Notes under the pieces: model-generated
What the model was told of the DNA's origin: nothing
What the model saw: only the letters and a program-made list of their open reading frames with translations
The model's database searches: none
Virus genome (UHGV): UHGV-0367149
Direction: 5' to 3' (one strand)
DNA: 37,417 nucleotides
From: a virus
Shown: one piece after another, positions 1,827-37,417 of the stretch
Numbering within the stretch: the stretch's first letter is position 1
Layout of the letters: every line of letters starts with the position of its first letter
Program-made: the position numbers and the translations under genes

Positions 1827-4298
1827 TTAAGAATCAGCCTGACTCGGGATCAGTTTTTGCCAGATAACTGAAACGTATTTTGCCTGGTAACGGGCGTCAT
1901 CAAGTGCATTATGGCGCTCACCTTCGAATGGAATAGCCGTTCTGGCATCGAAGTCTATGGCTTTCCCCAGCTCAACGATTGTGCGTACATCGCGATCGTT
2001 GTAGTAACGCCACGGGCAGGGGATCCCCTGCCGTTCGTATGAACGGCGCAAAATCGTGTTGTCGAAGTTGGCTCCATTTCCCCAGACCTGAACAAAAAAT
2101 TCACCGGAGTTTTCGTCGATAAATTCCCGCAATTGTAACAGTGCATCATCTAACGGGATTTCATCGGTCATAATGGCAGATTGCGCTTCGCGTGATTGCT
2201 TAAGCCACCATTTAATGGTGTCCCGATCAATGACTCCGCCAGCAGTTTCCAGATCGATAGTCTTACTAAATTCCGGTCCCATATCTCCGGTTTGCGGATC
2301 GAAAAATATTGCACCTATTGAGATGATCGGGGCATCAGGATTTTTTCCCATGGTTTCAAGGTCTATCATTAGATGGTCACACGTCCTGCTGGTGGATGTG
2401 ATTTCGTGATGACCGTTCACCTTAATTGAGTGATCTGCCGTCTCGCCAGTTTCATTATCGCTATCGTGATGCTGATTGCCGCCAGCATTCTCCTTGTGTG
2501 GATGTTCAGCGCCTTCCATTTTCTCCGGATCATCTTCCTGAACTTCAACCTGATACTCTTCATCGAATGTTTCTTGGTATGTTGCGTCGCCCATCACCGC
2601 GCCACAATCAGGGCAGTTGCCACCGCCGGTCTGACCGCAGGCGGTGCAGACTTTTTCCACTTCCTGATGCGCCACTGGCTCAGGCTGTTTCGTTTCTGGC
2701 TCGTTTTGTAACGCATTTGGGCTGTTTTGTTCCGCTTTTTGGTAGTTCCGTTCCGATTCATGCTGGTTCTGGTTCACAGAATCGCGGGTCTGGATCCCCT
2801 TAACCCATTTCGGATCATTCGGGTCACTAATCCCTTCAACAAATTCACCACGTGATGCAGCAAGCAACTTATCGGCGTCAGGCTGGCTGATATTGGCTGC
2901 CTGCATAATTTTGTTTACTTCGTCAGCGGTAACTTTTATCGGCTCTGGTTGTTCTGAATCTTCAGCGGTATCTACATTTTGCGGTAAGCCCGTGTATGTG
3001 CCATTTTTTCGGGCAAAATATTCTTCTTTTGTGATTTCAGTGGCGCCAGCAGCCAGTGCCTTATCCAGACCAGAAAGTTTGTTTGCGCGACCGTATTTTT
3101 CTCCGTCCTTATCTGCGAAGAGGAAATAGAACGGCCCCTCACGCTCTACAGATGGTTCAGCTTCCGGCGCGGTTTCATTTTTTGGGATATCAGATACCTC
3201 AGTTTCCACTGCATCAGTTTGTGTTTCTGATGACTGGAGAACATCAACAGTGCCCAGGTCTGTTTCTTCATTCTCAAACACGCCCTTTGTCGTCAGGTAT
3301 TCGCAGATATATTTGTTCAGTGCTATGGGATCTTTGTGAATGTCGATCGGACGCTCACGGACAAGGCCAAAAATAGTTTGGCGGTCGTAGCGAAGGGCAT
3401 CAGGCTGTTTGCGCATTGATGCCGAGATACGCTTCCAGTCTTCGCGGTCGTTGTCGATAACTTCATTTTTTGCCCAGCGATGGATGCTGCCATCAATGTT
3501 TCCGGCATCCACATCACCAGGCCAGAGAGCGTAGGCCAGTTCGTCATCCAGTGTTTTCCATGTCTGCTTGTATTCGCGATGGATGGCAGCAATGACCGGG
3601 CTGATTTTTCCTGTTGAATTTTCAGTGTACTGTTGATTGGCTCTGGCGCGGGCGAGATCAACAACAGACGTGTATTTTCCGGTTTCCTTGCGTTCACCTT
3701 CGCGACGTTTTTTCCAGATGCGCATCTCTGCCTGAATTTCGGGCCATTTAGCACCAGGAATACATTTATGCTTAACCCACCCAATGGCGTGCAACTTAAG
3801 CTCCGGATACATGGCGTTAACTTCTGGCATTTTCATCAACGCTTCAACGATATGTCCGTCGAATGTTGCCATGTCTTCCTGCAACAATTCCTGTGCGCTA
3901 ATAACCATATCAACGGTGATGTTTTCACATGTGTCGAACTTAACCATGACAGCGTTCTGTACTTCAGGGGCCAGCTTGTCAAAAGTGACGTTCATCGGAT
4001 CGGATTCAGTCTCAACCGGGACAAAAGAAGCAGACTCCTCATCCCAGCGGTTTTCCTGCATATATTCAGCATCCCATGAATCGAGGGCAGGGCGGGGTAT
4101 GCCAGGTTTATCCTCGCAGACAATAAATTTATAAGCGCAGTCCTGAGCAGCCGGATAATGTTCCAGGAATTGCCAGTGAAATTTTGCGCGGGCGCGACGT
4201 TCATCACCGGCTTCAATGGCAGTGGCTACAGCGACGGCACCTTCTTCCTTTATTGCCTGTTCGCCCGGAATGGCGGCGCAAATAAAGACTTTACTCAT
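1827..4298 (-). CDS. exodeoxyribonuclease VIII-like protein (RecE/YdfE family) with C-terminal DnaQ-like 3'-5' exonuclease domain
   Basis: 823-aa ORF. Central segment ...PDADKLLAASRGEFVEGISDPNDPKWVKGIQTRD... recalled as RecE-like. C-terminus has DEDDh-type motifs (MIDLETMG..., ...WGNGANFD..., ...HNALDDARY). A CxxC...CxxC zinc ribbon (CTACGQTGGGNCPDCG) lies between them. Confidence 0.75.
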   Translation of the reverse strand: MSKVFICAAIPGEQAIKEEGAVAVATAIEAGDERRARAKFHWQFLEHYPAAQDCAYKFIVCEDKPGIPRPALDSWDAEYMQENRWDEESASFVPVETESDPMNVTFDKLAPEVQNAVMVKFDTCENITVDMVISAQELLQEDMATFDGHIVEALMKMPEVNAMYPELKLHAIGWVKHKCIPGAKWPEIQAEMRIWKKRREGERKETGKYTSVVDLARARANQQYTENSTGKISPVIAAIHREYKQTWKTLDDELAYALWPGDVDAGNIDGSIHRWAKNEVIDNDREDWKRISASMRKQPDALRYDRQTIFGLVRERPIDIHKDPIALNKYICEYLTTKGVFENEETDLGTVDVLQSSETQTDAVETEVSDIPKNETAPEAEPSVEREGPFYFLFADKDGEKYGRANKLSGLDKALAAGATEITKEEYFARKNGTYTGLPQNVDTAEDSEQPEPIKVTADEVNKIMQAANISQPDADKLLAASRGEFVEGISDPNDPKWVKGIQTRDSVNQNQHESERNYQKAEQNSPNALQNEPETKQPEPVAHQEVEKVCTACGQTGGGNCPDCGAVMGDATYQETFDEEYQVEVQEDDPEKMEGAEHPHKENAGGNQHHDSDNETGETADHSIKVNGHHEITSTSRTCDHLMIDLETMGKNPDAPIISIGAIFFDPQTGDMGPEFSKTIDLETAGGVIDRDTIKWWLKQSREAQSAIMTDEIPLDDALLQLREFIDENSGEFFVQVWGNGANFDNTILRRSYERQGIPCPWRYYNDRDVRTIVELGKAIDFDARTAIPFEGERHNALDDARYQAKYVSVIWQKLIPSQADS

Positions 4299-4937: not shown

Positions 4938-4995
4938 AAAAAGGGCGGCAGAGCAGTCACGGAGTAAAACTGATACCGCCAAACGTCACCAGAAA
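4938..4995 (-). ncRNA. dicF: DicF small regulatory RNA (ftsZ-targeting), including its intrinsic terminator
   Basis: Minus-strand sequence UUUCUGGUGACGUUUGGCGGUAUCAGUUUUACUCCGUGACUGCUCUGCCGCCCUUUUU matches DicF as recalled. GC stem plus U-tract at the 3' end. Lies between the ydfB-like gene and dicB, as in Qin. Confidence 0.8.
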
Positions 4996-5987: not shown

Positions 5988-6179
5988 GCTGACCTCATTT
6001 CCCCTTAACGCCGGGGTAGCGGAACTGTTTGCTGAGAACACCGTGCGGTGTCTTGATGGAGGTAATTTAGTTTTCTCATTATTTTTCGTCAAGGTTTTTT
6101 GATGAGAAAACTCAAGTGTTGGCGCAAGATAAAGCCAATACATTGAAATGTAAGGCTTTAAAATTTTGTGAAGGGATGA

Positions 6180-6587
6180 TTATTGATGCTTGTTGCGTTT
6201 GCGAGCCTCTAATAGCTCGGTGAACAGGCGATTAAAATTCTCAACGCGGGCGCGGAGTTCGCTGAGTTGTGCTTGTTGCTCTGATTTAGGAAGTGCGCGA
6301 TACAAACGCAGCATCTCTAACTCATCTTCCGATAAGTCTAAGGCACTATCGAGTGAAACAGGGGGAGCTGGTGTTTTGTCCTCGTCGCCAAACAGTATCC
6401 AAGTTGGTGAACATTGCAATACCTCGGCGAGGCGATGCAAATTTTGCCCGCGCGGGGCTGTATGGTCACTTTCCCATAATGAAATTGATGAGCCAGATAC
6501 GCCAGCAGCTTTGCTTAAACCGTTTTGACTTAAGCCTACCTGCTTACGTCTTTCTCTAATGCGTTGACCTAAAGTTTTCTCGTTCAT
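6180..6587 (-). CDS. DicA-like HTH (XRE-family) prophage repressor
   Basis: Product from the ATG at 6587 (MNEKTLGQRIRERRKQVGLSQNGLSKAAG...LQCSPTWILFGDEDK...) is colinear with K-12 DicA as recalled, roughly half identical. Divergent from the Cro-like gene. Confidence 0.85.
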   Translation of the reverse strand: MNEKTLGQRIRERRKQVGLSQNGLSKAAGVSGSSISLWESDHTAPRGQNLHRLAEVLQCSPTWILFGDEDKTPAPPVSLDSALDLSEDELEMLRLYRALPKSEQQAQLSELRARVENFNRLFTELLEARKRNKHQ

Positions 6588-6664
6588 ATTTAGATATCTT
6601 AATAACCCTTGACTTGAGATTCCTTGAGTGATTAGCATTGAGAAAACTCAATATTGGAGGTGCG
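6588..6664. promoter_or_regulatory. divergent promoter/operator region between the DicA-like repressor and DicC-like Cro genes
   Basis: 77-bp AT-rich intergenic region between divergently oriented repressor and Cro-like genes. Contains TTGACTTGAGATTCCTTGAGTGATTAGCATTGAGAAAACTCAATATTG with repeated TTGAG/CTCAA half-site-like elements. Operator positions not resolved. Confidence 0.45.
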
Positions 6665-6892
6665 ATGTTTAAATCAGACGTAATTAATTTTTACGGTACG
6701 AAAGCCAAAGTAGCGAAAGCTGCTGGCGTTGACCCATCTGCTGTTTCTCAATGGCAAGAGCTGGTTCCTGAAGGTCGCGCGATGCGTCTACAGGAGGCAT
6801 CTGGCGGCGAGCTTCTGTATGATCCCAAGGTTTATGACGAATATCGTAAGACGAAGCGGGCGGGGCGGTTGAACAATGAAAATCACTCCTGA
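6665..6892 (+). CDS. DicC-like Cro-type small regulator
   Basis: ATG at 6665 with GGAGG Shine-Dalgarno (6656-6660). 75-aa product MFKSDVINFYGTKAKVAKAAGVDPSAVSQWQ...; its C-terminal half resembles DicC as I recall it, but I am unsure of that recollection. Confidence 0.7.
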   Translation: MFKSDVINFYGTKAKVAKAAGVDPSAVSQWQELVPEGRAMRLQEASGGELLYDPKVYDEYRKTKRAGRLNNENHS

Positions 6893-7397
6893 ACAGGCTC
6901 GTGAGGCTCTGGATGCCTGGATATGTCGACCAGGAATGACACAGGAGCAGGCGACGATATTAATCACTGAAGCATTCTGGGCTTTGAAAGAGCGCCCGAA
7001 CATCGATGTTCAGCGTGTCACAGATGAAGGTGGCGCGGTTGATCAGCGAGCACTTGGCGTTAATCGAGTGAAGATATTCGAACGCTGGAAGGCTATCGAC
7101 ACCAGGGATAAGCGTGAAAAGTTCACGGCGCTAGTGCCTGCAATTATGGAGGCTATTCGGATTAATGATTTCAGGTTGTATCGTGAAATTAGTGACGGAA
7201 AAAGCATCACGTACATGATCGCCGGGTTAAACAAAGAATATGGCGATGTGGTGGAGTCCGGACTGCTTTTTGCTGATCCTGCCGTAGTGGATCGTGAAAC
7301 TGACGAACTTATAGAAAAAGCAATTGCTTTCAAACTTGCGTATCGACAGCAATACCAACAAAAAGCTGGATGGAATTATGAGCCTTCTTTTTGCTGA
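6876..7397 (+). CDS. YdaT-family protein (CII-like / putative toxin family)
   Basis: 173-aa ORF whose start overlaps the Cro-like stop. The segment ...VKIFERWKAIDTRDKREKFTALVPAIMEAI... parallels Rac YdaT (...NIYHRWLKGETKTAREKIQKLIPAILAIL...) as recalled. Confidence 0.55.
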   Translation: MKITPEQAREALDAWICRPGMTQEQATILITEAFWALKERPNIDVQRVTDEGGAVDQRALGVNRVKIFERWKAIDTRDKREKFTALVPAIMEAIRINDFRLYREISDGKSITYMIAGLNKEYGDVVESGLLFADPAVVDRETDELIEKAIAFKLAYRQQYQQKAGWNYEPSFC

Positions 7398-8343
7398 ACG
7401 CCCACTGGTTATAAACACACAGCTTGCGATGAAGATTGGCTTAAATGAAGCCATTGTGTTGCAGCAGTTGCATTACTGGTTGAGAGATACCAATTCCGGC
7501 ATGGAATGTGATGGTGTTCGCTGGATTTACAACACAACGGAACAATGGCTGGAACAGTTCCCATTCTGGTCAGAGTCAACGTTAAAGCGCGCGTTTGCAA
7601 GTCTGAAAACGCTGGGGCTTTTGCGTTGTGAAAAGCTCAATAAATCAAAGCGCGATATGACCAATTTCTACACGATCAACTACGGGAGCGAGCTTTTAGA
7701 TGGTGGCAAATTGAGCGAATCCATCGGTTTAAAATGCGCCGCTCCATCAGGTCAAAATGACACGATGGAAGAGGTCAAAATGAAACGCTCCATTGGTTCA
7801 AAACGACCCAATGTCATCGGGTCAAAATGGCCTGATGATCTTACAGAGAATACAACAGAGATTACTACAGAGAATAAAAACACTTTTCGTCCGGAAGCTT
7901 CGCAACCGGACCCGCAGACCGCTGAACAGGATTTTTTAACCCGGAACCCCGACGCGGTTGTGTTTAGTGCGAAAAAACGCCAGTGGGGTAGCAGGGAGGA
8001 TTTGGCGTGTGCGCAGTGGATTTGGGGGCGGATCGTGAACCTTTACGAACAGGCTGCCAGCGACGATGGAGAGATCATGCGACCAAAAGAGCCTAACTGG
8101 ACAGCCTGGGCCAATGACGTGCGCACAATGCGGATGCTGGATGGCAGAAGCCACAGACAAATTTGCGAAATGTTTGGTCGGGTACAGCGAGATCAATTCT
8201 GGGTAAAAAACATCATGAGCCCGTCAAAACTCCGCGAAAAATGGGACGAACTGGTCATCCGCCTGGGACGTTCACCTGTAAAGCGTTGTGTGAATCATAT
8301 TTCTGAACCGGATACAGAAATTCCGCCTGGTTTCAGGGGATAA
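7378..8343 (+). CDS. phage replication initiation (O-like / replisome-organizer) protein
   Basis: ATG at 7378 (the ORF track begins at an upstream TTG at 7324). N-terminal HTH-like region MSLLFAERPLVINTQLAMKIGLNEAIVLQQLHYWL... Sits after the Cro/YdaT genes, as YdaU does in Rac. Confidence 0.5.
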   Translation: MSLLFAERPLVINTQLAMKIGLNEAIVLQQLHYWLRDTNSGMECDGVRWIYNTTEQWLEQFPFWSESTLKRAFASLKTLGLLRCEKLNKSKRDMTNFYTINYGSELLDGGKLSESIGLKCAAPSGQNDTMEEVKMKRSIGSKRPNVIGSKWPDDLTENTTEITTENKNTFRPEASQPDPQTAEQDFLTRNPDAVVFSAKKRQWGSREDLACAQWIWGRIVNLYEQAASDDGEIMRPKEPNWTAWANDVRTMRMLDGRSHRQICEMFGRVQRDQFWVKNIMSPSKLREKWDELVIRLGRSPVKRCVNHISEPDTEIPPGFRG

Positions 8344-8383
8344 GTGTTGATTTTAGGGTATAAAGTAATGTTCAGGAGGACTT

Positions 8384-8803
8384 GTGGCAAAAGTTTTTAC
8401 ACAAGAAGAGCGGGAAAAAATTAAAGGGCAGGTGGTGGAACTCGTACGCCAGAGTGGGCGCGAGACGTTACGACAACTGGAAGCTAAAACTGGGGCAACA
8501 AGATATCTGATGAGCGTTCTGGCCAGAGAGCTGGTTGCCAGTGGCGATGTATACAGCTCTGGTTACGGGTTATTCCCGTCTGAACAGGCGCGTAAGGACT
8601 GGCAAAACGCCCGCAAAAAACTCTCGAGGGCAAAGGTGAAGAAACCTGCTGTGGTTGATCCGGACCTTATCTGGTCATTACCTGACGGAGAAATACGTCG
8701 CTACGACAGTCGTCTAAACATAATCTGTCGCGAGTGCCGGAAGGCAAGGAGAAGCAGGCTATTGTTAACACCAAGCTGTAATGTCCCCTTTGAACCATTC
8801 TAA
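8384..8803 (+). CDS. hypothetical protein; 3' end abuts or enters the IS left end
   Basis: GTG start with AGGAGGA Shine-Dalgarno. 139-aa product with no recognised family. Stop lies only 33 nt before the transposase ATG, so the C-terminus may be IS-derived. Confidence 0.4.
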   Translation: MAKVFTQEEREKIKGQVVELVRQSGRETLRQLEAKTGATRYLMSVLARELVASGDVYSSGYGLFPSEQARKDWQNARKKLSRAKVKKPAVVDPDLIWSLPDGEIRRYDSRLNIICRECRKARRSRLLLTPSCNVPFEPF

Positions 8804-10540
8804 AATGTCCCCAGACAATTCTCTGGGGGATTTTTCATGATCAAAGAGACTGTTACGATGAGTCATAAGGAACTCCACCGACTTCAGATTATTCAGGAGT
8901 CAATTAATCGACATATTACTCAGGAACAAGCTGCGGCACGCATTGGCATTTCTATTCGGCAGGTTAAACGTCTGGTGCAACGGTATAGAAATGAAGGGCC
9001 TTCTGGTCTGGTTTCCCACCGACGTGGAAAGCGTCCTAATAATTCCTTTTCTACTGAATTCAGAGCAACAGTAATTTCACTCCTCAAAGGCCGTTACGCT
9101 GATTTTGGACCTACGTTTGCGTGCGAAAAATTGCGCGAGATACACGGTTTATCTTTATCCGTTGAAACTCTCAGAAAGTGGATGATAGAAGAGGGGTTAT
9201 GGCGTGAACGCCGTCGTAAAATTGCCCGTATATATCAACGCCGCATGCGACGACCATCTTACGGTGAACTGATCCAGATTGATGGCTCACCTCATGACTG
9301 GTTTGAAAATCGAGGCCCCAGATGTACACTGATCGTTTTCATTGATGATGCCACCAGTGCGTTGATGGCGTTGCGTTTTGTGCCTGCTGAAACAACCCGG
9401 GCTTACATGGAAACCCTCCGGGGTTACCTTAATGATCATGGCGTACCGCTCGCTCTCTACTCTGATAGACACAGTATATTCAGGGTAAATAACCCAGAGC
9501 GGGAAGGTGAGCTGACCCAGTTCACTCGTGCGATAAAGACACTGGGCATCGAGCCAATCCATGCCAACAGCCCGCAGGCAAAAGGGCGGGTAGAGCGCGC
9601 CAATCAGACACTACAGGACAGGCTGGTCAAAGAAATGCGGCTTCAGAATATCAGTGATATTGAAACAGCAAATGCATGGTTGCCGACCTTTATTGAAGCC
9701 TATAACAACCGGTTCGCTACGTCGCCTCATACTACTGATAATGCTCATCTTGATGTGCACCATTCTGAAGAGGAACTGGGTTATATCTTCAGCCTACAGG
9801 CGAAGCGCGTTCTGTCTAAAAATCTCACTTTCCAGTACAAAAGCAGTGCGTTTCAGGTACGCAGTGAGGGCCGGGGATATCGACTTAGGCATTCGGTTGT
9901 TACTGTATGTGAGAACTTTGACGGTGAAATTAACGTTCTGTATGACGGGAAAGCGCTGGGCTGGGAAAAGTATGTTGATGGCCCGGAGCCTATACCACTG
10001 GATGATGAAAAGAGTGTCCATGAACGAGTGGATAATGCCCGTATTGATTTACGCTCAAAATACTATGTTAAATCTAAAGCTGACCATCCCTGGCTTACGC
10101 GCCGAACGCAAAGTCATCAGCAAGTTAAGCCCCCGAAGTTACCTAAAAAGAAGCCTGATCCCGATAAAATAGATTGAAACCAAGATCGATTCGGTTGAGT
10201 GCATATCCATTCATAGGGTAGATTCTTAAGTCGCGTTTCTGGTGTTCATTTTCGGGTGGTTTGTTACTTGTTTTACCGGGGATATGCCAGAAACGCGCTG
10301 AGTCAGTCTGGGCGGTGCGCGTAATGAGGCGTTATGGTAAATAGCCTATGCTAATGTCCGCTAAGAGCAAGAAGCGGAAGTTGGCAGTTTTGTGGACTGT
10401 CCCCACAAAAGTGACTACAGAAATAGTTGCAATTCATAATTGATCATGGGTTGTCAGTTAAACTCGTGGCGATTTAAATAGACTAATTGGGAGGGCGTCC
10501 ATTACTTATATCTTGTAATGTTAACTATCAGAAATGATAC
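8780..10540 (+). mobile_element. insertion sequence (single-ORF DDE transposase, IS481/ISNCY-like); ends not resolved
   Basis: Transposase ORF 8837-10177 plus about 350 bp of non-phage-like flank. I could not identify terminal inverted repeats or a target-site duplication by eye, so the boundaries are approximate. Confidence 0.4.
8837..10177 (+). CDS. IS transposase (N-terminal HTH, rve/DDE integrase core)
   Basis: 446-aa ORF. N-terminal HTH (...AAARIGISIRQVKRLVQRY...). Candidate DDE triad in ...LIQIDGSPHDW..., ...ALYSDRHSIF..., ...AKGRVERANQTLQ... Confidence 0.85.
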   Translation: MIKETVTMSHKELHRLQIIQESINRHITQEQAAARIGISIRQVKRLVQRYRNEGPSGLVSHRRGKRPNNSFSTEFRATVISLLKGRYADFGPTFACEKLREIHGLSLSVETLRKWMIEEGLWRERRRKIARIYQRRMRRPSYGELIQIDGSPHDWFENRGPRCTLIVFIDDATSALMALRFVPAETTRAYMETLRGYLNDHGVPLALYSDRHSIFRVNNPEREGELTQFTRAIKTLGIEPIHANSPQAKGRVERANQTLQDRLVKEMRLQNISDIETANAWLPTFIEAYNNRFATSPHTTDNAHLDVHHSEEELGYIFSLQAKRVLSKNLTFQYKSSAFQVRSEGRGYRLRHSVVTVCENFDGEINVLYDGKALGWEKYVDGPEPIPLDDEKSVHERVDNARIDLRSKYYVKSKADHPWLTRRTQSHQQVKPPKLPKKKPDPDKID

Positions 10541-10613
10541 AAAGATAATATGTCTTTAAAGAAAAGGCTGATGGCGAAAAGTGGCCCGATGAGGGCCACA
10601 ATACGGCTGTCAC

Positions 10614-10946
10614 TTAGACGTAAATATCAATGGTGCCAGCGGTATTTGTATCGTCTTTTTTCTCTTCTTTTTTATCAGGCTGAACTGTCGCGTCTTTATT
10701 CTTTTTCTCTGCCTGCTGCCTTAACAACTGCTCCAGTTGAGCCCTGAGGCTTTCAATTTGCTTCTGTACCAATGCAGCCATTTCTTTTTTCTGCTGTGTC
10801 GTCATCCCCTCTTCCGATGAGATTTTCCCAAGCTTTTCAGTCAACACCTGAATTTGTCTTGTGATTTTGGCTATTTCTGATGTTCCTTCCGGGGCGGAGT
10901 TGTTTGAAATAACGGTTGAGGTATTTCCCTGAATTGTGACAGACAT
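10614..10946 (-). CDS. flxA: FlxA (FliA-dependent Qin-prophage protein)
   Basis: 110-aa ORF MSVTIQGNTSTVISNNSAPEGTSEIAKITRQIQVLTEKLGK... matching K-12 FlxA as recalled. AAGGAG Shine-Dalgarno. Preceded by a sigma28-type promoter. Confidence 0.85.
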   Translation of the reverse strand: MSVTIQGNTSTVISNNSAPEGTSEIAKITRQIQVLTEKLGKISSEEGMTTQQKKEMAALVQKQIESLRAQLEQLLRQQAEKKNKDATVQPDKKEEKKDDTNTAGTIDIYV

Positions 10947-10969
10947 AGATTTCTCCTTTTAAAAAAGCA

Positions 10970-10996
10970 CTATCGGCATGCACAAAAAAATCTTTA
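10970..10996 (-). promoter_or_regulatory. sigma28 (FliA) promoter of flxA
   Basis: On the minus strand: TAAAGATT, an 11-nt spacer, then GCCGATAG, against the sigma28 consensus TAAAGTTT-N11-GCCGATAA. Positioned about 25 nt upstream of the flxA ATG. Confidence 0.65.
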
Positions 10997-11148
10997 ATCG
11001 TATTTCTTGTGTCATTAATTGTTTGATGTTCAGATTGTTTTCCTCGCGGGCTGGCGCGCCTCAGAAAGTAAAGCTTGTTGACAGGGGTAAACGTTCGGCA
11101 ATAATTTTCTGCCGCATGCGGGTGTTGCATAAAACGTGCTACGTTCCT

Positions 11149-11454
11149 TTATCGACAGGTCAGGTCACCGCTCACCCGCCGACGAGAAAGCAACACTGAC
11201 ATGCTAAAGCAAAAAATAGATGAATAAGTTGAGTTGTGCATATGTAGCCTGACCGTCACAAAGTATATGGTGTCTGTACCAGTAAGATGATGGCCGGACT
11301 CTTTAAAAGCGAGCTGACCTGCACAATACAGGATGGACTTAGCAATGGCTGCTCCTGGCACAAAGCGGACAGTGATCACCGTTCTTACGACTACTTTCTG
11401 ACTTCCTTCGTGACTTGCCCTAAGCATGTTGTAGTGCGATACTTGTAATGACAT
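11149..11454 (-). CDS. YdfV-like hypothetical protein
   Basis: 101-aa ORF between flxA and relB, the position and length of K-12 ydfV. Sequence is not strongly protein-like. Confidence 0.4.
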   Translation of the reverse strand: MSLQVSHYNMLRASHEGSQKVVVRTVITVRFVPGAAIAKSILYCAGQLAFKESGHHLTGTDTIYFVTVRLHMHNSTYSSIFCFSMSVLLSRRRVSGDLTCR

Positions 11455-11478
11455 TTGTAATTACAAGAGGTGTAAGAC

Positions 11479-11718
11479 ATGGGTAGCATTAACCTGCGTA
11501 TTGACGATGAACTTAAAGCGCGTTCTTACGCCGCGCTTGAAAAAATGGGTGTAACTCCTTCTGAAGCGCTTCGTCTCATGCTCGAGTATATCGCTGACAA
11601 TGAACGCTTGCCGTTCAAACAGACACTCCTGAGTGATGAAGATGCTGAACTTGTGGAGATAGTGAAAGAACGGCTTCGTAATCCTAAGCCAGTACGTGTG
11701 ACGCTGGATGAACTCTGA
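11479..11718 (+). CDS. relB: RelB antitoxin
   Basis: 79-aa ORF MGSINLRIDDELKARSYAALEKMGVTPSEALRLMLEYIADNERLPFKQTLLSDEDAELVEIVKERLRNPKPVRVTLDEL, matching K-12 RelB as recalled. Confidence 0.92.
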   Translation: MGSINLRIDDELKARSYAALEKMGVTPSEALRLMLEYIADNERLPFKQTLLSDEDAELVEIVKERLRNPKPVRVTLDEL

Positions 11719-12005
11719 TGGCGTATTTTCTGGATTTTGACGAGCGGGCACTAAAGGAATGGCGAAAGCTGGGCTCGACGGTACGTGAACAGTTGAAAAA
11801 GAAGCTGGTTGAAGTACTTGAGTCACCCCGGATTGAAGCAAACAAGCTCCGTGGTATGCCTGATTGTTACAAGATTAAGCTCCGGTCTTCAGGCTATCGC
11901 CTTGTATACCAGGTTATAGACGAGAAAGTTGTCGTTTTCGTGATTTCTGTTGGGAAAAGAGAACGCTCGGAAGTATATAGCGAGGCGGTCAAACGCATTC
12001 TCTGA
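11718..12005 (+). CDS. relE: RelE mRNA-interferase toxin
   Basis: 95-aa ORF MAYFLDFDERALKEWRKLGSTVREQLKKKLVEVLESPRIEANKLRGMPDCYKIKLRSSGYRLVYQVIDEKVVVFVISVGKRERSEVYSEAVKRIL. Start overlaps the relB stop. Confidence 0.92.
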   Translation: MAYFLDFDERALKEWRKLGSTVREQLKKKLVEVLESPRIEANKLRGMPDCYKIKLRSSGYRLVYQVIDEKVVVFVISVGKRERSEVYSEAVKRIL

Positions 12006-12076
12006 ACCAAAGCATGACATCTCTGTTTCGCACCGAAGGTGACACTTCTGCTTTGCGTTGACAGGAGAAGCAGGCT

Positions 12077-12232
12077 ATGAAGCAGCAAAAGGCGATGTTA
12101 ATCGCCCTGATCGTCATCTGTTTAACCGTCATAGTGACGGCACTGGTAACGAGGAAAGACCTCTGCGAGGTACGAATCCGAACCGGCCAGACGGAGGTCG
12201 CTGTCTTCACAGCTTACGAACCTGAGGAGTAA
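12077..12232 (+). CDS. hokD: HokD (RelF) Hok-family membrane toxin
   Basis: Not in the ORF track (51 aa). ATG at 12077 to TAA at 12230-12232 encodes MKQQKAMLIALIVICLTVIVTALVTRKDLCEVRIRTGQTEVAVFTAYEPEE, matching HokD as recalled. Directly downstream of relE. Confidence 0.88.
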   Translation: MKQQKAMLIALIVICLTVIVTALVTRKDLCEVRIRTGQTEVAVFTAYEPEE

Positions 12233-15496: not shown

Positions 15497-15796
15497 AAAA
15501 ATTCCTTAATACTGATAACTTGGCGCACTATACACACGTTCCTGAAGAAAGCTATAGTTTTTTGATGGGGTTGAAGATGGCTGGATGTCTAAAATAAACA
15601 TTGCTTCATATGTTCAACTATGCGTTAATGATTGCGTCGGTTTGAAGAACAGACGATATACGAAGTAGTTTACTAAAGCAGTTCTCATTTCAGGTGTTAT
15701 TCACTTATTCCTTCTTTGAGTCTCTCCAATTAAGTACGAAGTCGTTTCTGTTATGCAAACCATTTATGCCGAAAGGCTCAAGTTAAGGAATGTAGA

Positions 15797-16012
15797 ATGT
15801 CAAATAAAATGACTGGTTTAGTAAAATGGTTTAACGCTGATAAAGGTTTCGGCTTTATTTCTCCTGTTGATGGTAGTAAAGATGTGTTTGTGCATTTTTC
15901 TGCGATTCAGAATGATAATTATCGAACCTTATTTGAAGGTCAAAAGGTTACCTTCTCTATAGAGAGTGGTGCTAAAGGTCCTGCAGCAGCAAATGTCATC
16001 ATTACTGATTAA
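15797..16012 (+). CDS. cspB: cold-shock protein CspB
   Basis: 71-aa [74 protein letters not shown] with canonical RNP1/RNP2 motifs. Divergent from cspF, as in Qin. Confidence 0.85.
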
Positions 16013-16294
16013 AATTCATCGCTCGTCTGTATACGATAACGAAGAAGGCTGATGCCTGAGTAGAGATACGGACAGAGTAGTGAATATTGGATCTCTTTAA
16101 TAAAAAGTAAGGAGGTCCAATACATGAAACAATGGCTAGCATATTTGGCAAAATCTTAATCAGGAAAAGTATGCTAACCATTGTGGTGAAGTGCAGGTTT
16201 GCTGCATGAATAGTTTTACAGCAGAAGCTAACTGCTGGCATGGCAAAACAAAGTGCGTAAGTGGATGACTCCCACAAAAAGCACCACAATCTCA

Positions 16295-18321: not shown

Positions 18322-18683
18322 GGTAATATTAAATCGGAACATTTACATCGCGGAATGTAAAATTTAAATAAAAAGGACTCTTCCATGAGCCAAAATTCCT
18401 GAAATCTTAAGGGTAAGATAAAAGGTCTTAATCAGAATGACACGTTTTATTAATAAATAAAGCTATTCTTTCATTGCTGTGTTTTTCTTTACAAAAGTAA
18501 TCCTTGCCATGGGTGGTTAATCATGCGTTAATGGTGTTCTGGTTTGTTACAAATTTATCTGAAGCAGTCATTGTTATAATTTTATTATTTGTACCTCTTG
18601 AGATTTCCTTGTTGGTTTTTCTCTCTGATATTTTTTTTCGGACCATTCTGCCCAAGGGCTAATTTCTTCAAAAGGTAATAATT

Positions 18684-18896
18684 ATGTCTAACAAAATGAC
18701 TGGTTTAGTGAAATGGTTTAACCCTGAAAAAGGTTTTGGTTTCATCACGCCGAAAGATGGCAGCAAAGATGTGTTTGTCCATTTCTCAGCAATTCAGAGC
18801 AACGATTTCAAAACATTAACTGAGAATCAGGAAGTTGAATTTGGTATTGAGAACGGACCTAAAGGTCCTGCCGCTGTTCATGTAGTGGCGCTTTGA
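18684..18896 (+). CDS. cspI: cold-shock protein CspI
   Basis: 70-aa [73 protein letters not shown]. Long upstream untranslated region (18322-18683), typical of cold-shock genes. Confidence 0.85.
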
Positions 18897-19102
18897 GGTA
18901 GACAATATTACAAACCATATTCACTTTAGATGCCCGTGTTGTCATGGTTCCCAGTATAGAACATCATCTTTTGATGTTTCTGACATGAATCCTTTCGGGG
19001 CAAAATGTATCTTTTGTAAATCAATGATGATTACATTTGATAATATTTCACAATACTTAAATGCCAGCCGTCTGTCGTTGGATTTAAAAAAGTGAAAATG
19101 AA

Positions 19103-36284: not shown

Positions 36285-37329
36285 ATGGGTAAAGGAAGCA
36301 GTAAGGGGCATACTCCGCGCGAAGCGAAGGACAACCTGAAGACCACGCAGTTGCTGAGTGTGATCGATGCCATCAGCGAAGGGCCGATTGAAGGTCCGGT
36401 GGAGGGATTAAAAAGCGTGCTGCTGAACAGTACGCCGGTGCTGGACAGTGAGGGGAATACCAATATCTCCGGCGTCACGGTGGTGTTCCGGGCCGGTGAG
36501 CAGGAGCAGACTCCGCCGGAGGGATTTGAATCCTCCGGCTCCGAGACGGTGTTGGGTACGGAAGTGAAATACGACACGCCGATCACCCGCGCCATCACGT
36601 CGGCAAACATCGACCGACTGCGCTTTACCTTCGGTGTGCAGGCACTGGTGGAAACCACCTCAAAGGGGGACCGGAATCCGTCGGAAGTTCGCCTGCTGGT
36701 TCAGATACAGCGTAATGGTGGCTGGGTGACGGAAAAAGACATCACCATTAAGGGCAAAACCACCTCGCAGTATCTGGCCTCGGTGGTGGTGGATAACCTG
36801 CCGCCGCGCCCGTTTAATATCCGGATGCGCAGAATGACGCCGGACAGTACCACAGACCAGCTGCAGAACAAAACGCTCTGGTCGTCATACACCGAAATCA
36901 TCGATGTGAAACAGTGCTACCCGAACACGGCACTGGTCGGCGTACAGGTGGATTCGGAGCAGTTCGGCAGCCAGCAGGTGAGCCGTAATTATCATCTGCG
37001 CGGGCGTATTCTGCAGGTGCCGTCGAATTATAACCCGCAGACGCGGCAATACAGCGGTATCTGGGACGGAACGTTTAAACCGGCATACAGCAACAACATG
37101 GCCTGGTGTCTGTGGGATATGCTGACCCACCCGCGCTACGGCATGGGGAAACGTCTTGGTGCGGCAGATGTGGATAAATGGGCGCTGTATGTCATCGGCC
37201 AGTACTGCGACCAGTCGGTGCCGGACGGCTTTGGCAGCACGGAGCCGCGCATCACCTGTAATGCCTGGCTGACCACACAGCGCAAGGCGTGGGATGTGCT
37301 CAGTGATTTCTGCTCGGCGATGCGCTGTA
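36285..37329 (+). CDS. J: tail tip/host-specificity protein J, N-terminal portion only (disrupted by foldback at 37330)
   Basis: MGKGSSKGHTPREAKDNLKTTQLLSVIDAISEGPIEGPVEGLKSVLLNSTPVLD..., lambda gpJ-like. Colinearity with lambda J ends after ...DFCSAMRC; from 37330 the sequence is the reverse complement of upstream J sequence. The ORF-track stop at 37352 is created by the rearrangement. Confidence 0.85.
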
Positions 37330-37417
37330 GGTCAGCCAGGCATTACAGGTGATGCGCGGCTCCGTGCTGCCAAAGCCGTCCGGCACCGACTGGTCGCAGT
37401 ACTGGCCGATGACATAC
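37187..37417. repeat. perfect 88-bp inverted (foldback) duplication: arm 37187-37274, 55-bp spacer, inverted arm 37330-37417 reaching the window end
   Basis: The last 88 nt of the window are the exact reverse complement of 37187-37274. The junction at 37329/37330 coincides with loss of the J reading frame. Confidence 0.85.

What the first reader, a model, noticed from the sequence alone, without database searches (positions are those of the whole stretch)
10947..11000. Near-consensus sigma28 promoter drives flxA inside the prophage
TAAAGATT, an 11-nt spacer, then GCCGATAG lies about 25 nt upstream of the flxA start. This couples a prophage gene of unknown function to the host flagellar regulon.
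Basis: partly seen in the sequence, partly recalled or inferred. Interest (0 to 1): 0.35.

Follow-up and report, generated by a model that had tools for sequence, protein, structure and literature searches.

The report
Known FliA promoter of flxA
The motif is real, but it is the long-known flagellar sigma-28 promoter of the E. coli gene flxA, so the finding is ordinary; the only new detail is that flxA and its promoter ride on a small transposon inside the prophage.

Summary
On the minus strand, TAAAGATT (10996-10989), an 11-nt spacer and GCCGATAG (10977-10970) lie 23 nt upstream of the flxA ATG (10946). This is the best sigma-28 matrix score in the window: 21.9 bits against 14.6 for the runner-up.

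The 114 nt upstream of flxA are identical to E. coli K-12. The same 28-mer is a published FliA ChIP-seq site, and flxA RNA falls from 280 to 2 in a fliA deletion (Fitzgerald 2014). Earlier evidence comes from Ide and Kutsukake 1997, Zhao 2007 and Shimada 2017.

Two refinements:
- **The coupling did not arise in the prophage.** 53 of 55 distinct upstream regions of distant FlxA-like genes carry a sigma-28 motif at the same position. These come from Enterobacter, Citrobacter, Kluyvera and Cedecea, and the Serratia gene carries the motif too. In Enterobacter and Serratia the gene sits at the same chromosomal locus.
- **flxA here is transposon cargo.** It lies in a 3,301-bp ISEsa1-family (IS1202-family) transposon, 8763-12063. 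The element has TGT...ACA ends, 19/26 inverted repeats, a 15-bp target duplication at the hokD start and a demonstrated empty site. It also carries relBE.

Interest is low and the novelty verdict is already known.

The parts
10989..10996 (-). -35 element of the sigma-28 promoter, TAAAGATT (consensus TAAAGTTT, 7 of 8)
   Evidence: Identical to the published flxA FliA site.
10978..10988 (-). 11-nt spacer, TTTTTGTGCAT
   Evidence: The length is invariant across FlxA-family promoters while the sequence is not conserved (0.33 bits per column).
10970..10977 (-). -10 element of the sigma-28 promoter, GCCGATAG (consensus GCCGATAA, 7 of 8)
   Evidence: This is the most conserved block across 26 diverse FlxA-family upstream regions (1.57 bits per column).
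10947..10969 (-). Initiation region and short 5' leader. The transcription start is inferred at about 10961-10964. Shine-Dalgarno AAGGAG is at 10958-10953, 6 nt before the ATG.
   Evidence: Sequence. The start position is inferred from the usual distance in sigma-28 promoters and was not measured here.
10614..10946 (-). flxA coding sequence, 110 aa. It differs from the K-12-lineage strain EC600 protein by 2 residues.
   Evidence: The AlphaFold2 model shows disordered residues 1-19, helices 20-42 and 50-86, and a disordered tail.
10577..10599 (-). Terminator-like hairpin 15 nt after the flxA stop: GUGGCCC-UCAUC-GGGCCAC followed by UUUU
   Evidence: for the sequence. One search gives a fold of -15.6 kcal/mol with z = -2.7. 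It falls below the tool's T-run threshold, so one search did not list it. Its function is inferred.
10383..11350 (.). Variable cargo segment of the transposon. It holds flxA, its promoter, the hairpin and the 5' part of the ydfV ORF.
   Evidence: Other copies of the element share only 8735-10378/10382 and 11351-12081 with the window.
8763..12063 (+). 3,301-bp ISEsa1-family (IS1202-family) transposon that carries flxA. Left repeat TGTTAACACCAAGCTGTAATGTCCCC at 8763-8788. Right repeat GGTGACACTTCTGCTTTGCGTTGACA at 12038-12063. The two match at 19 of 26 positions.
   Evidence: The empty site is in E. coli 12689. The same unit sits in a plasmid hok gene with a different duplication.
8748..8762 (+). 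Left copy of the 15-bp target-site duplication, GGAGAAGCAGGCTAT, at the 3' end of the DUF977 gene
12064..12078 (+). Right copy of the target-site duplication. It contains the Shine-Dalgarno sequence and the first two bases of the hokD ATG (12077).
8837..10177 (+). Intact 446-aa ISEsa1-family transposase. K-12 'ydfW' is its C-terminal remnant.
   Evidence: for the ORF. One search gives the HTH_28 and rve_3 hits. An annotated 1,341-bp gene of the same length lies on a plasmid. K-12 lacks window 7156-9992.
11479..12005 (+). relB and relE toxin-antitoxin pair, at the conserved right arm of the transposon

Best explanation
This is flxAp, a class 3 flagellar promoter read by RNA polymerase carrying sigma-28 (FliA).

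Mechanism:
- FliA region 4 contacts TAAAGATT and regions 2/3 contact GCCGATAG across the fixed 11-nt spacer.
- Transcription starts a few bases downstream, giving a leader of about 15-17 nt with a strong AAGGAG ribosome-binding site.
- The monocistronic flxA message ends at a hairpin plus U-run 15 nt after the stop codon.
- FliA is held inactive by FlgM until the hook-basal body is complete and FlgM is exported. flxA is therefore made together with flagellin, chemoreceptors and motor proteins.

Shown for the identical K-12 sequence: the motif, FliA binding and FliA dependence. Inferred: the start site, the terminator function and the export-gated timing.

The promoter and gene travel as one cassette. 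Here the cassette is the cargo of an ISEsa1-family transposon that inserted at the hokD start codon of a Qin-type prophage.
For: - **Motif strength:** the site is unique in the window and has the best matrix score.
- **Identity to K-12:** the 114 nt upstream of flxA are identical to a K-12 derivative. The 60-mer is present in 1,199 of 5,426 complete E. coli genomes, and 1,105 records are at least 99% identical.
- **Published experiments on that sequence:** FliA ChIP-seq peak with RNA 280 versus 2 in a fliA deletion; a 28.4-fold drop in a fliA deletion and an 8.2-fold rise on sigma-F induction; genomic SELEX with RpoF holoenzyme alone; co-variation with flagellar genes in unrelated transcriptomes.
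- **No competing promoter:** no sigma-70-like site lies on the flxA strand between 10200 and 11500.
- **Close homologues:** FlxA proteins of 62-88% identity, found in five different genomic contexts, all keep the two boxes, the 11-nt spacer and the 23-nt distance to the ATG.
- **Distant homologues:** 53 of 55 distinct upstream regions score at least 12 bits, against a background frequency of 1e-5 per position. The -10 box lies 26-32 nt from the ATG.
- **Conservation pattern:** information is concentrated in the two boxes (1.24 and 1.57 bits per column), compared with 0.28-0.45 in the flanks and spacer.
- **Serratia:** the copy at the shared chromosomal locus has TAAAGTTT-N11-GCCGATAC, scoring 20.1 bits, the best hit in 12.5 kb.
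Against: - Nothing was measured in this strain.
- The last base of the -10 box is G, not the consensus A.
- The transcription start falls in a T-run and is only inferred.
- The hairpin has only four U residues, so termination may be partial.
- Some read-through from upstream on the same strand cannot be excluded, although the 140-fold loss in a fliA deletion leaves little room for it.
- The 55 upstream regions are related sequences, not independent samples.
Confidence: 0.96

Rival explanations
1. The motif is a chance match. flxA would then be expressed from another promoter, either a sigma-70 promoter or read-through from the ydfV region upstream on the same strand.
For: ydfV (11454-11149) lies upstream on the same strand. 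The region is AT-rich, and sigma-28 -35 boxes are AT-rich.
Against: Only 0.05 matches are expected by chance. The score exceeds all 100 shuffled windows. No sigma-70-like site lies on that strand. flxA RNA falls from 280 to 2 in a fliA deletion for the identical sequence. The motif is conserved in position across the whole gene family.
Confidence: 0.01
2. The gene is phage-born and was recruited to the flagellar regulon by a promoter that arose inside the prophage. This is the literal reading of 'couples a prophage gene to the host regulon'.
For: In E. coli the gene sits within a Qin-type prophage in nearly all cases. One relative lies next to phage lysis genes (L013).
Against: FlxA-like genes with the same promoter architecture occupy a conserved chromosomal locus in both Enterobacter and Serratia. 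In both genera the gene is followed by a LysR-family regulator, an SBF-family transporter gene, ligA and zipA; gltX precedes it in Enterobacter only. Close homologues with the promoter also occur on plasmid-like and island contexts. In this window the gene lies inside a transposon whose empty site exists in another Qin-type prophage. Only one record among 50,697 phage genomes encodes it.
Confidence: 0.04
3. The site binds FliA but is a transcriptionally unimportant by-product, like many intragenic FliA sites in E. coli.
For: Most newly found FliA sites in E. coli are intragenic and poorly conserved.
Against: This site is intergenic and correctly placed before a gene with a strong ribosome-binding site. 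It gives one of the largest fliA-dependent changes in the published table, and it is conserved across genera.
Confidence: 0.01

Closest known systems
flxAp, the FliA-dependent promoter of flxA (b1566) in the Qin prophage of E. coli K-12 (Ide and Kutsukake 1997, Gene 199:19; Fitzgerald et al. 2014, PMC4183435)
   Same: The 114 nt upstream of the ATG are identical. The 28-mer is the same as in the published table. The neighbours relBE, hokD and ydfV are the same.
   Different: This strain keeps the whole transposon and an almost complete lambdoid prophage. K-12 has lost window 7156-9992, which holds the left transposon end and most of the transposase. FlxA differs at 2 residues.
Canonical class 3 flagellar promoters (fliC, tar, flgM, tsr, yhjH)
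   Same: Same two boxes and 11-nt spacer. The score of 21.9 bits lies within the range of those sites, 15-29 bits. Same dependence on FliA.
   Different: The gene is not needed for motility, according to the title of Ide and Kutsukake 1997. It is also carried on a mobile element.
IS1202-family insertion sequences, in particular ISEsa1 (Harmer and Hall 2023, PMC10132070)
   Same: 5'-TGT...ACA-3' ends, imperfect 26-bp terminal repeats (19 of 26), a second internal copy of the repeat core near the left end (D1), a 446-aa transposase, a target duplication of similar length to the family's 16-17 bp class, and site-specific insertion.
   Different: The element is 3.3 kb, not 1.6 kb. It carries relBE plus exchangeable cargo. 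It targets the start of hok genes rather than dif sites. ISEsa1 is listed as 1,609 bp with no detectable duplication, and no right-end repeat was found where the conserved left arm ends (10372-10382).
Prophage 'morons' (independently transcribed accessory genes with their own promoter and terminator)
   Same: A self-contained unit of promoter, gene and hairpin, transcribed against the flow of neighbouring genes and controlled by the host.
   Different: It entered the prophage as transposon cargo rather than between phage genes. Its promoter is read by an alternative sigma factor.

Membership tests
Sigma-28 (FliA) class 3 promoter | -35 element close to TAAAGTTT | tested here: met
   TAAAGATT, 7 of 8
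Sigma-28 (FliA) class 3 promoter | -10 element close to GCCGATAA | tested here: met
   GCCGATAG, 7 of 8
Sigma-28 (FliA) class 3 promoter | 11-nt spacer between the two 8-mers | tested here: met
   TTTTTGTGCAT, 11 nt. The spacer length is the same in all family members scored.
Sigma-28 (FliA) class 3 promoter | Score comparable with experimentally bound sites and above chance | tested here: met
   21.9 bits, top of the window and above all shuffles; bound sites score 9-29 bits
Sigma-28 (FliA) class 3 promoter | FliA binding and FliA-dependent transcription in vivo | not testable with these tools
   Published for the identical K-12 sequence: ChIP-seq, RNA-seq 280 versus 2, arrays and SELEX. Not measured in this strain.
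FlxA family (Pfam PF14282) | Profile match above the curated cut-off | tested here: met
   54.1 bits against a cut-off of 26.3, residues 7-101
IS1202-family transposable element | Outer ends 5'-TGT and ACA-3' with imperfect 24-26 bp terminal inverted repeats | tested here: met
   TGT at 8763-8765 and ACA at 12061-12063; 19 of 26 match (criteria)
IS1202-family transposable element | Large transposase (394-507 aa) with N-terminal HTH domains and an RNase H/DDE fold | tested here: met
   446 aa with HTH_28, HTH_29, HTH_32 and rve_3 hits. Annotated as ISEsa1 family in identical copies.
IS1202-family transposable element | Target-site duplication, verified against an empty site | tested here: met
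   A 15-bp duplication. The empty site in E. coli 12689 holds one copy of the target. Two other insertions have different duplications.
IS1202-family transposable element | Simple IS of about 1.3-1.75 kb that encodes only the transposase | tested here: not met
   The element is 3,301 bp and carries flxA, ydfV and relBE. Other copies carry metal-transport cargo. It is therefore a cargo-carrying transposon built on an IS1202-family transposase, not a plain IS.
Qin-type lambdoid prophage | Gene order int-xis-exo ... dicB-DicF-dicA-dicC ... relBE-hokD-rem ... Q ... cspB/F, lysis genes, cspI ... terminase-head-tail, next to rspB | tested here: met
   The window is 90.8-99.8% identical by segment to the annotated prophage of E. 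coli A11; positions 6059-6763 did not align. DicF and cspA-type leaders were found by Rfam.

The most novel reading that the evidence does not exclude
The flxA cassette is cargo of a transposon type I could not find described. It is an ISEsa1-family (IS1202-family) element whose true right end lies beyond relBE. It carries relBE as a built-in addiction module, exchanges cargo between its two conserved arms (flxA here; nickel or cation transporters on plasmids), and inserts specifically at the ribosome-binding site and start codon of hok toxin genes.

This would explain two things. ISEsa1 is listed as having no target duplication because its right end was mis-assigned. The classical relB-relE-hokD ('relBEF') arrangement of E. 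coli K-12 is the scar of such an insertion.

Separately, FlxA would be an ancestral sigma-28 regulon member of Enterobacterales, possibly a late substrate of the flagellar export apparatus.
Probability: 0.4. Interest if true: 0.45.

Novelty: already known. Interest (0 to 1): 0.15.

Why it matters
The finding itself adds nothing new. flxA has been a recognised FliA-dependent gene since 1997, and the site appears in genome-wide FliA maps.

What the follow-up adds is context.
- **Ancestral control:** sigma-28 control is a conserved trait of the whole FlxA family. That argues FlxA has a real, still unknown role linked to flagellar assembly or motility.
- **Horizontal spread of a regulon member:** the E. 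coli copy is spread by a relBE-carrying, hok-targeting transposon, so a host-regulon gene can move between prophages and plasmids with its regulation intact.
- **Routes to function:** the disordered N-terminus, class 3 timing, detection in a culture-supernatant proteome alongside known flagellar export substrates, and discordant protein and mRNA behaviour when flagellar secretion is impaired together make an export test worthwhile.

Tried and rejected
- **Protein searches:** the first two were swamped by near-identical E. coli sequences. Distant relatives came only from the exhaustive representative search and a third search seeded with distant members.
- **Over-divergent alignment:** a 15-sequence alignment was too divergent for locus finding, so I used a 4-sequence alignment instead.
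- **Discarded locus:** L012 has homopolymer errors and a false N-terminal extension.
- **Structure searches:** sequence and fold searches of solved structures gave only generic coiled-coil or helical-hairpin matches, none below E = 0.001 by fold. No functional inference was drawn.
- **Original paper:** Ide and Kutsukake 1997 is not held, so the published primer-extension start site could not be checked.
- **A plain 1,609-bp IS:** I looked for an ISEsa1 right end where plasmid alignments stop, at 10372-10382. No inverted copy of the left repeat exists in the window outside 12038-12063, so I rejected the idea of a plain IS next to unrelated genes.
- **Repeat as chance or recombination scar:** I rejected this for the 16-nt direct repeat after finding the empty site and independent insertions with different duplications.
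- **Literature:** no paper in the held library links IS1202-family elements to hok, or describes FlxA-like promoters across species.

Full report
**1. The observation**

The features all lie on the minus strand:
- TAAAGATT at 10996-10989
- an 11-nt spacer, TTTTTGTGCAT, at 10988-10978
- GCCGATAG at 10977-10970
- 23 further bases containing AAGGAG (10958-10953)
- the ATG at 10946 of a 110-aa ORF that ends at 10614

The degenerate pattern TAAAGWTT-N11-GCCGATAR, allowing two mismatches, hits only this site in the window; 0.05 hits are expected. I built a weight matrix from 24 published FliA sites, leaving flxA out. With all columns the site scores 21.85 bits, above the best of 100 shuffled windows (20.06). 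With the two boxes only it scores 21.9 bits, the top of 74,780 positions (mean -20.0, sd 7.9); the runner-up scores 14.6. The ORF matches Pfam FlxA, PF14282, at 54.1 bits against a cut-off of 26.3.

**2. Where the window comes from**

The window is an E. coli chromosome segment next to rspB that holds a nearly complete Qin-type lambdoid prophage. The gene order is int, xis, exo, dicB, DicF, dicA, dicC, relBE, hokD, rem, Q, cspB/F, lysis genes, cspI, terminase, head and tail genes. It is 90.8-99.8% identical, by aligned segment, to strain A11; positions 6059-6763 did not align.

The 1.1 kb around flxA occurs in 1,283 of 5,426 complete E. coli genomes. The 60-nt promoter and leader occur in 1,199 genomes, and 1,105 records are at least 99% identical. 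The 114 nt upstream of the ATG are identical to a K-12 derivative, and FlxA differs at two residues.

**3.

- Fitzgerald et al. 2014 list exactly TAAAGATTTTTTTGTGCATGCCGATAGT as the flxA FliA ChIP-seq site. Normalised RNA is 280 in motile MG1655 and 2 in a fliA deletion, marked significant. They call flxA a well-characterised FliA-dependent promoter and cite Ide and Kutsukake 1997.
- Zhao et al. 2007 report a 28.4-fold drop in a fliA deletion and an 8.2-fold rise five minutes after sigma-F induction.
- Shimada et al. 2017 recover the ydfV/flxA spacer in genomic SELEX with RpoF holoenzyme alone.
- flxA also tracks flagellar genes in unrelated transcriptome studies.

No sigma-70-like site lies on the flxA strand nearby.

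**4. Mechanism**

Sigma-28 holoenzyme recognises the two boxes across the fixed spacer. Initiation is inferred at about 10961-10964, giving a 15-17-nt leader with a strong ribosome-binding site.

A hairpin, GUGGCCC-UCAUC-GGGCCAC followed by UUUU, lies 15 nt after the stop codon at 10599-10577. It folds at -15.6 kcal/mol with z = -2.7 and probably ends a monocistronic transcript.

Timing follows from the established FlgM/FliA checkpoint: the promoter fires only after hook-basal-body completion. The start site, the termination and the timing are inferences. Binding and FliA dependence are published for the identical sequence.

**5. The promoter belongs to the gene family, not to the prophage**

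FlxA homologues of 62-88% identity lie in five different contexts:
- the Qin prophage
- an integrase/DUF3800 island in Enterobacter
- two chromosomal settings
- a setting next to TraI

All keep a TAAA-type -35 box, an 11-nt spacer, an (A/G)CCGATA -10 box and the 23-nt distance to the ATG, while the flanks diverge.

An exhaustive profile search finds only 64 clusters at 50% identity with E of 0.001 or better. The distant members are 29-38% identical to E. coli FlxA, and the Serratia proteins 21-22%. They are named FlxA-like in Enterobacter, Kluyvera, Citrobacter, Cedecea, Superficieibacter, Pseudocitrobacter and Serratia.

I fetched 80 metagenomic loci encoding these distant members. Of 55 distinct upstream regions, 53 have a sigma-28 score of at least 12 bits, against a background frequency of 1e-5 per position. 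The typical site is TCAAGCTA-N11-GCCGATAC, and the -10 box always lies 26-32 nt from the ATG.

Across 26 diverse regions aligned on the motif, information per column is:

| Region | Bits per column |
|---|---|
| -35 box | 1.24 |
| -10 box | 1.57 |
| spacer | 0.33 |
| upstream flank | 0.28 |
| downstream flank | 0.45 |

. Anchoring the alignment on the motif inflates the box values somewhat, but the fixed position does not depend on it.

In Enterobacter and in Serratia the gene occupies the same chromosomal locus: it is followed by a LysR-family regulator, an SBF-family transporter gene, ligA and zipA, and in Enterobacter it is preceded by gltX. The Serratia copy carries TAAAGTTT-N11-GCCGATAC at 20.1 bits, the best hit in 12.5 kb. 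Sigma-28 control is therefore ancestral to the family.

I found no paper in the held library that states this.

**6. In this window flxA is transposon cargo**

The repeat search found a perfect 16-nt direct repeat at 8747-8762 and 12063-12078. The stretch between has these features:
- it begins TGTTAACACCAAGCTGTAATGTCCCC and ends GGTGACACTTCTGCTTTGCGTTGACA
- the two ends are inverted repeats matching at 19 of 26 positions
- the outer bases are TGT...ACA
- this leaves a 15-bp duplication, GGAGAAGCAGGCTAT

These are the hallmarks Harmer and Hall give for the IS1202 family. The element (8763-12063, 3,301 bp) encodes an intact 446-aa ISEsa1-family transposase, flxA with its promoter, ydfV and relBE.

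Three lines show it is a real transposon:
- **Empty site.** In E. coli 12689 the DUF977 gene runs directly into hokD, with one copy of the target.
- **Independent insertion.** The same 3.3-kb unit sits in a different hok gene on an Enterobacter asburiae IncF plasmid. It is 99.55% identical but has a different duplication, GGAGAAGAAGGCCA(T).
- **Same ends, other cargo.** A Citrobacter freundii plasmid has the same ends and relBE but carries a cytochrome b and a cation-diffusion transporter as cargo, again at a hok start with its own duplication.

A Phytobacter plasmid has nickel-resistance genes after the transposase.

Comparison defines three parts: a conserved left arm (8763 to about 10380), a conserved right arm (11351-12063) and a variable cargo segment (10383-11350) that holds the flxA cassette.

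Further points:
- ISEsa1 is listed as 1,609 bp with no detectable duplication. The likely reason is that its real right end lies beyond relBE.
- K-12 has lost window 7156-9992, so only the transposase C-terminus ('ydfW') remains.
- The insertion places hokD downstream of relBE. This probably created the relB-relE-hokD arrangement known from K-12.
- The transposase region occurs on 841 plasmids.
- I found no paper linking IS1202-family elements to hok.

**7. The FlxA protein**

The AlphaFold2 model has mean pLDDT 66. It shows a disordered N-terminus (residues 1-19), helices 20-42 and 50-86, and a disordered tail. No solved structure is related beyond generic coiled coils.

Two published observations are leads only:
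- FlxA is enriched in a culture-supernatant proteome together with FlgK, FliD, FliC, FlgL and FlgM, although cytoplasmic proteins were present too.
- FlxA shows opposite protein and mRNA regulation at 42 degrees C, where flagellar secretion is inefficient.

Together with class 3 timing, these make export by the flagellar apparatus a testable idea, not a conclusion.

**8. Verdict**

Interest is low. The family-wide promoter conservation and the relBE-carrying, hok-targeting transposon are by-products that may deserve their own follow-up.

Noticed in passing
window 8763-12063 (ends 8763-8788 and 12038-12063; duplication 8748-8762 and 12064-12078): A 3.3-kb ISEsa1-family (IS1202-family) transposon carries flxA, ydfV and relBE. 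It inserted at the hokD ribosome-binding site and start codon. An empty site exists in E. coli 12689. Independent insertions into plasmid hok genes have different duplications, and some carry different cargo. ISEsa1 is listed in the literature as 1,609 bp with no duplication.
   Followed up: yes
L019-L098 (metagenome loci), L099-L103 (Enterobacter and Serratia genomes): Distant FlxA-like genes almost all carry a sigma-28 promoter at a fixed distance from the ATG. In both Enterobacter and Serratia the gene lies at the same chromosomal locus, followed by a LysR-family regulator, an SBF-family transporter gene, ligA and zipA; gltX precedes it in Enterobacter.
   Followed up: yes
window 7156-9992, compared with L110 (K-12 derivative EC600): K-12 lacks this 2.8-kb stretch, which holds part of the ydaT-like gene, a hypothetical gene, DUF977, the left transposon end and most of the transposase. 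K-12 'ydfW' is the transposase C-terminus and 'ydfX' is a truncated ydaT-like gene.
   Followed up: yes
window 11149-11454 (minus strand, ydfV) and 11078-11105 (plus strand): The ydfV ORF straddles the junction between cargo and right arm at 11351 and has no Pfam match, so it may not be a real gene. A strong sigma-70-like site (TTGACA, 16 nt, AATAAT; 11 of 12) points along the plus strand, antisense to ydfV and towards relB. It is followed by the palindrome CCGCATGCGG.
   Followed up: no
window 10614-10946 (FlxA protein): FlxA has a disordered N-terminus and a helical hairpin. It was reported in an E. coli supernatant proteome with flagellar export substrates. It was also reported to show opposite protein and mRNA changes at 42 degrees C. 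It may be a flagellar export substrate.
   Followed up: partly
window 37187-37274 and 37330-37417: An 88-nt perfect inverted repeat with a 55-nt loop runs exactly to the end of the window, inside the tail-tip gene J. Similarity to strain A11 stops at about 37206. This looks like a fold-back artefact at a contig end, or an inversion breakpoint.
   Followed up: partly
window 3434-3461 (plus strand): The second-best sigma-28 matrix hit is TCCAGTCTTCGCGGTCGTTGTCGATAAC, 14.6 bits with the two boxes only. It lies antisense inside the exonuclease gene and is within the range seen in shuffled sequence.
   Followed up: no
window 4943-4994 (minus), 15636-16028 and 18538-18923 (plus): Rfam finds DicF RNA and two cspA-type thermoregulator leaders (cspB and cspI), as expected for a Qin-type prophage.
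   Followed up: no
L107 1680-1942 (E. coli BL21(DE3)): BL21-lineage strains have neither the transposon nor the simple empty site. About 240 nt of unrelated sequence lie between DUF977 and hokD.
   Followed up: no
L104 (Edwardsiella tarda plasmid NZ_MF925337, 6.5 kb): A fragment equal to window 10294-12064 (flxA, ydfV, relBE and the right transposon end, without the transposase) is 99% identical on a small mobilizable plasmid of a different bacterial family.
   Followed up: partly
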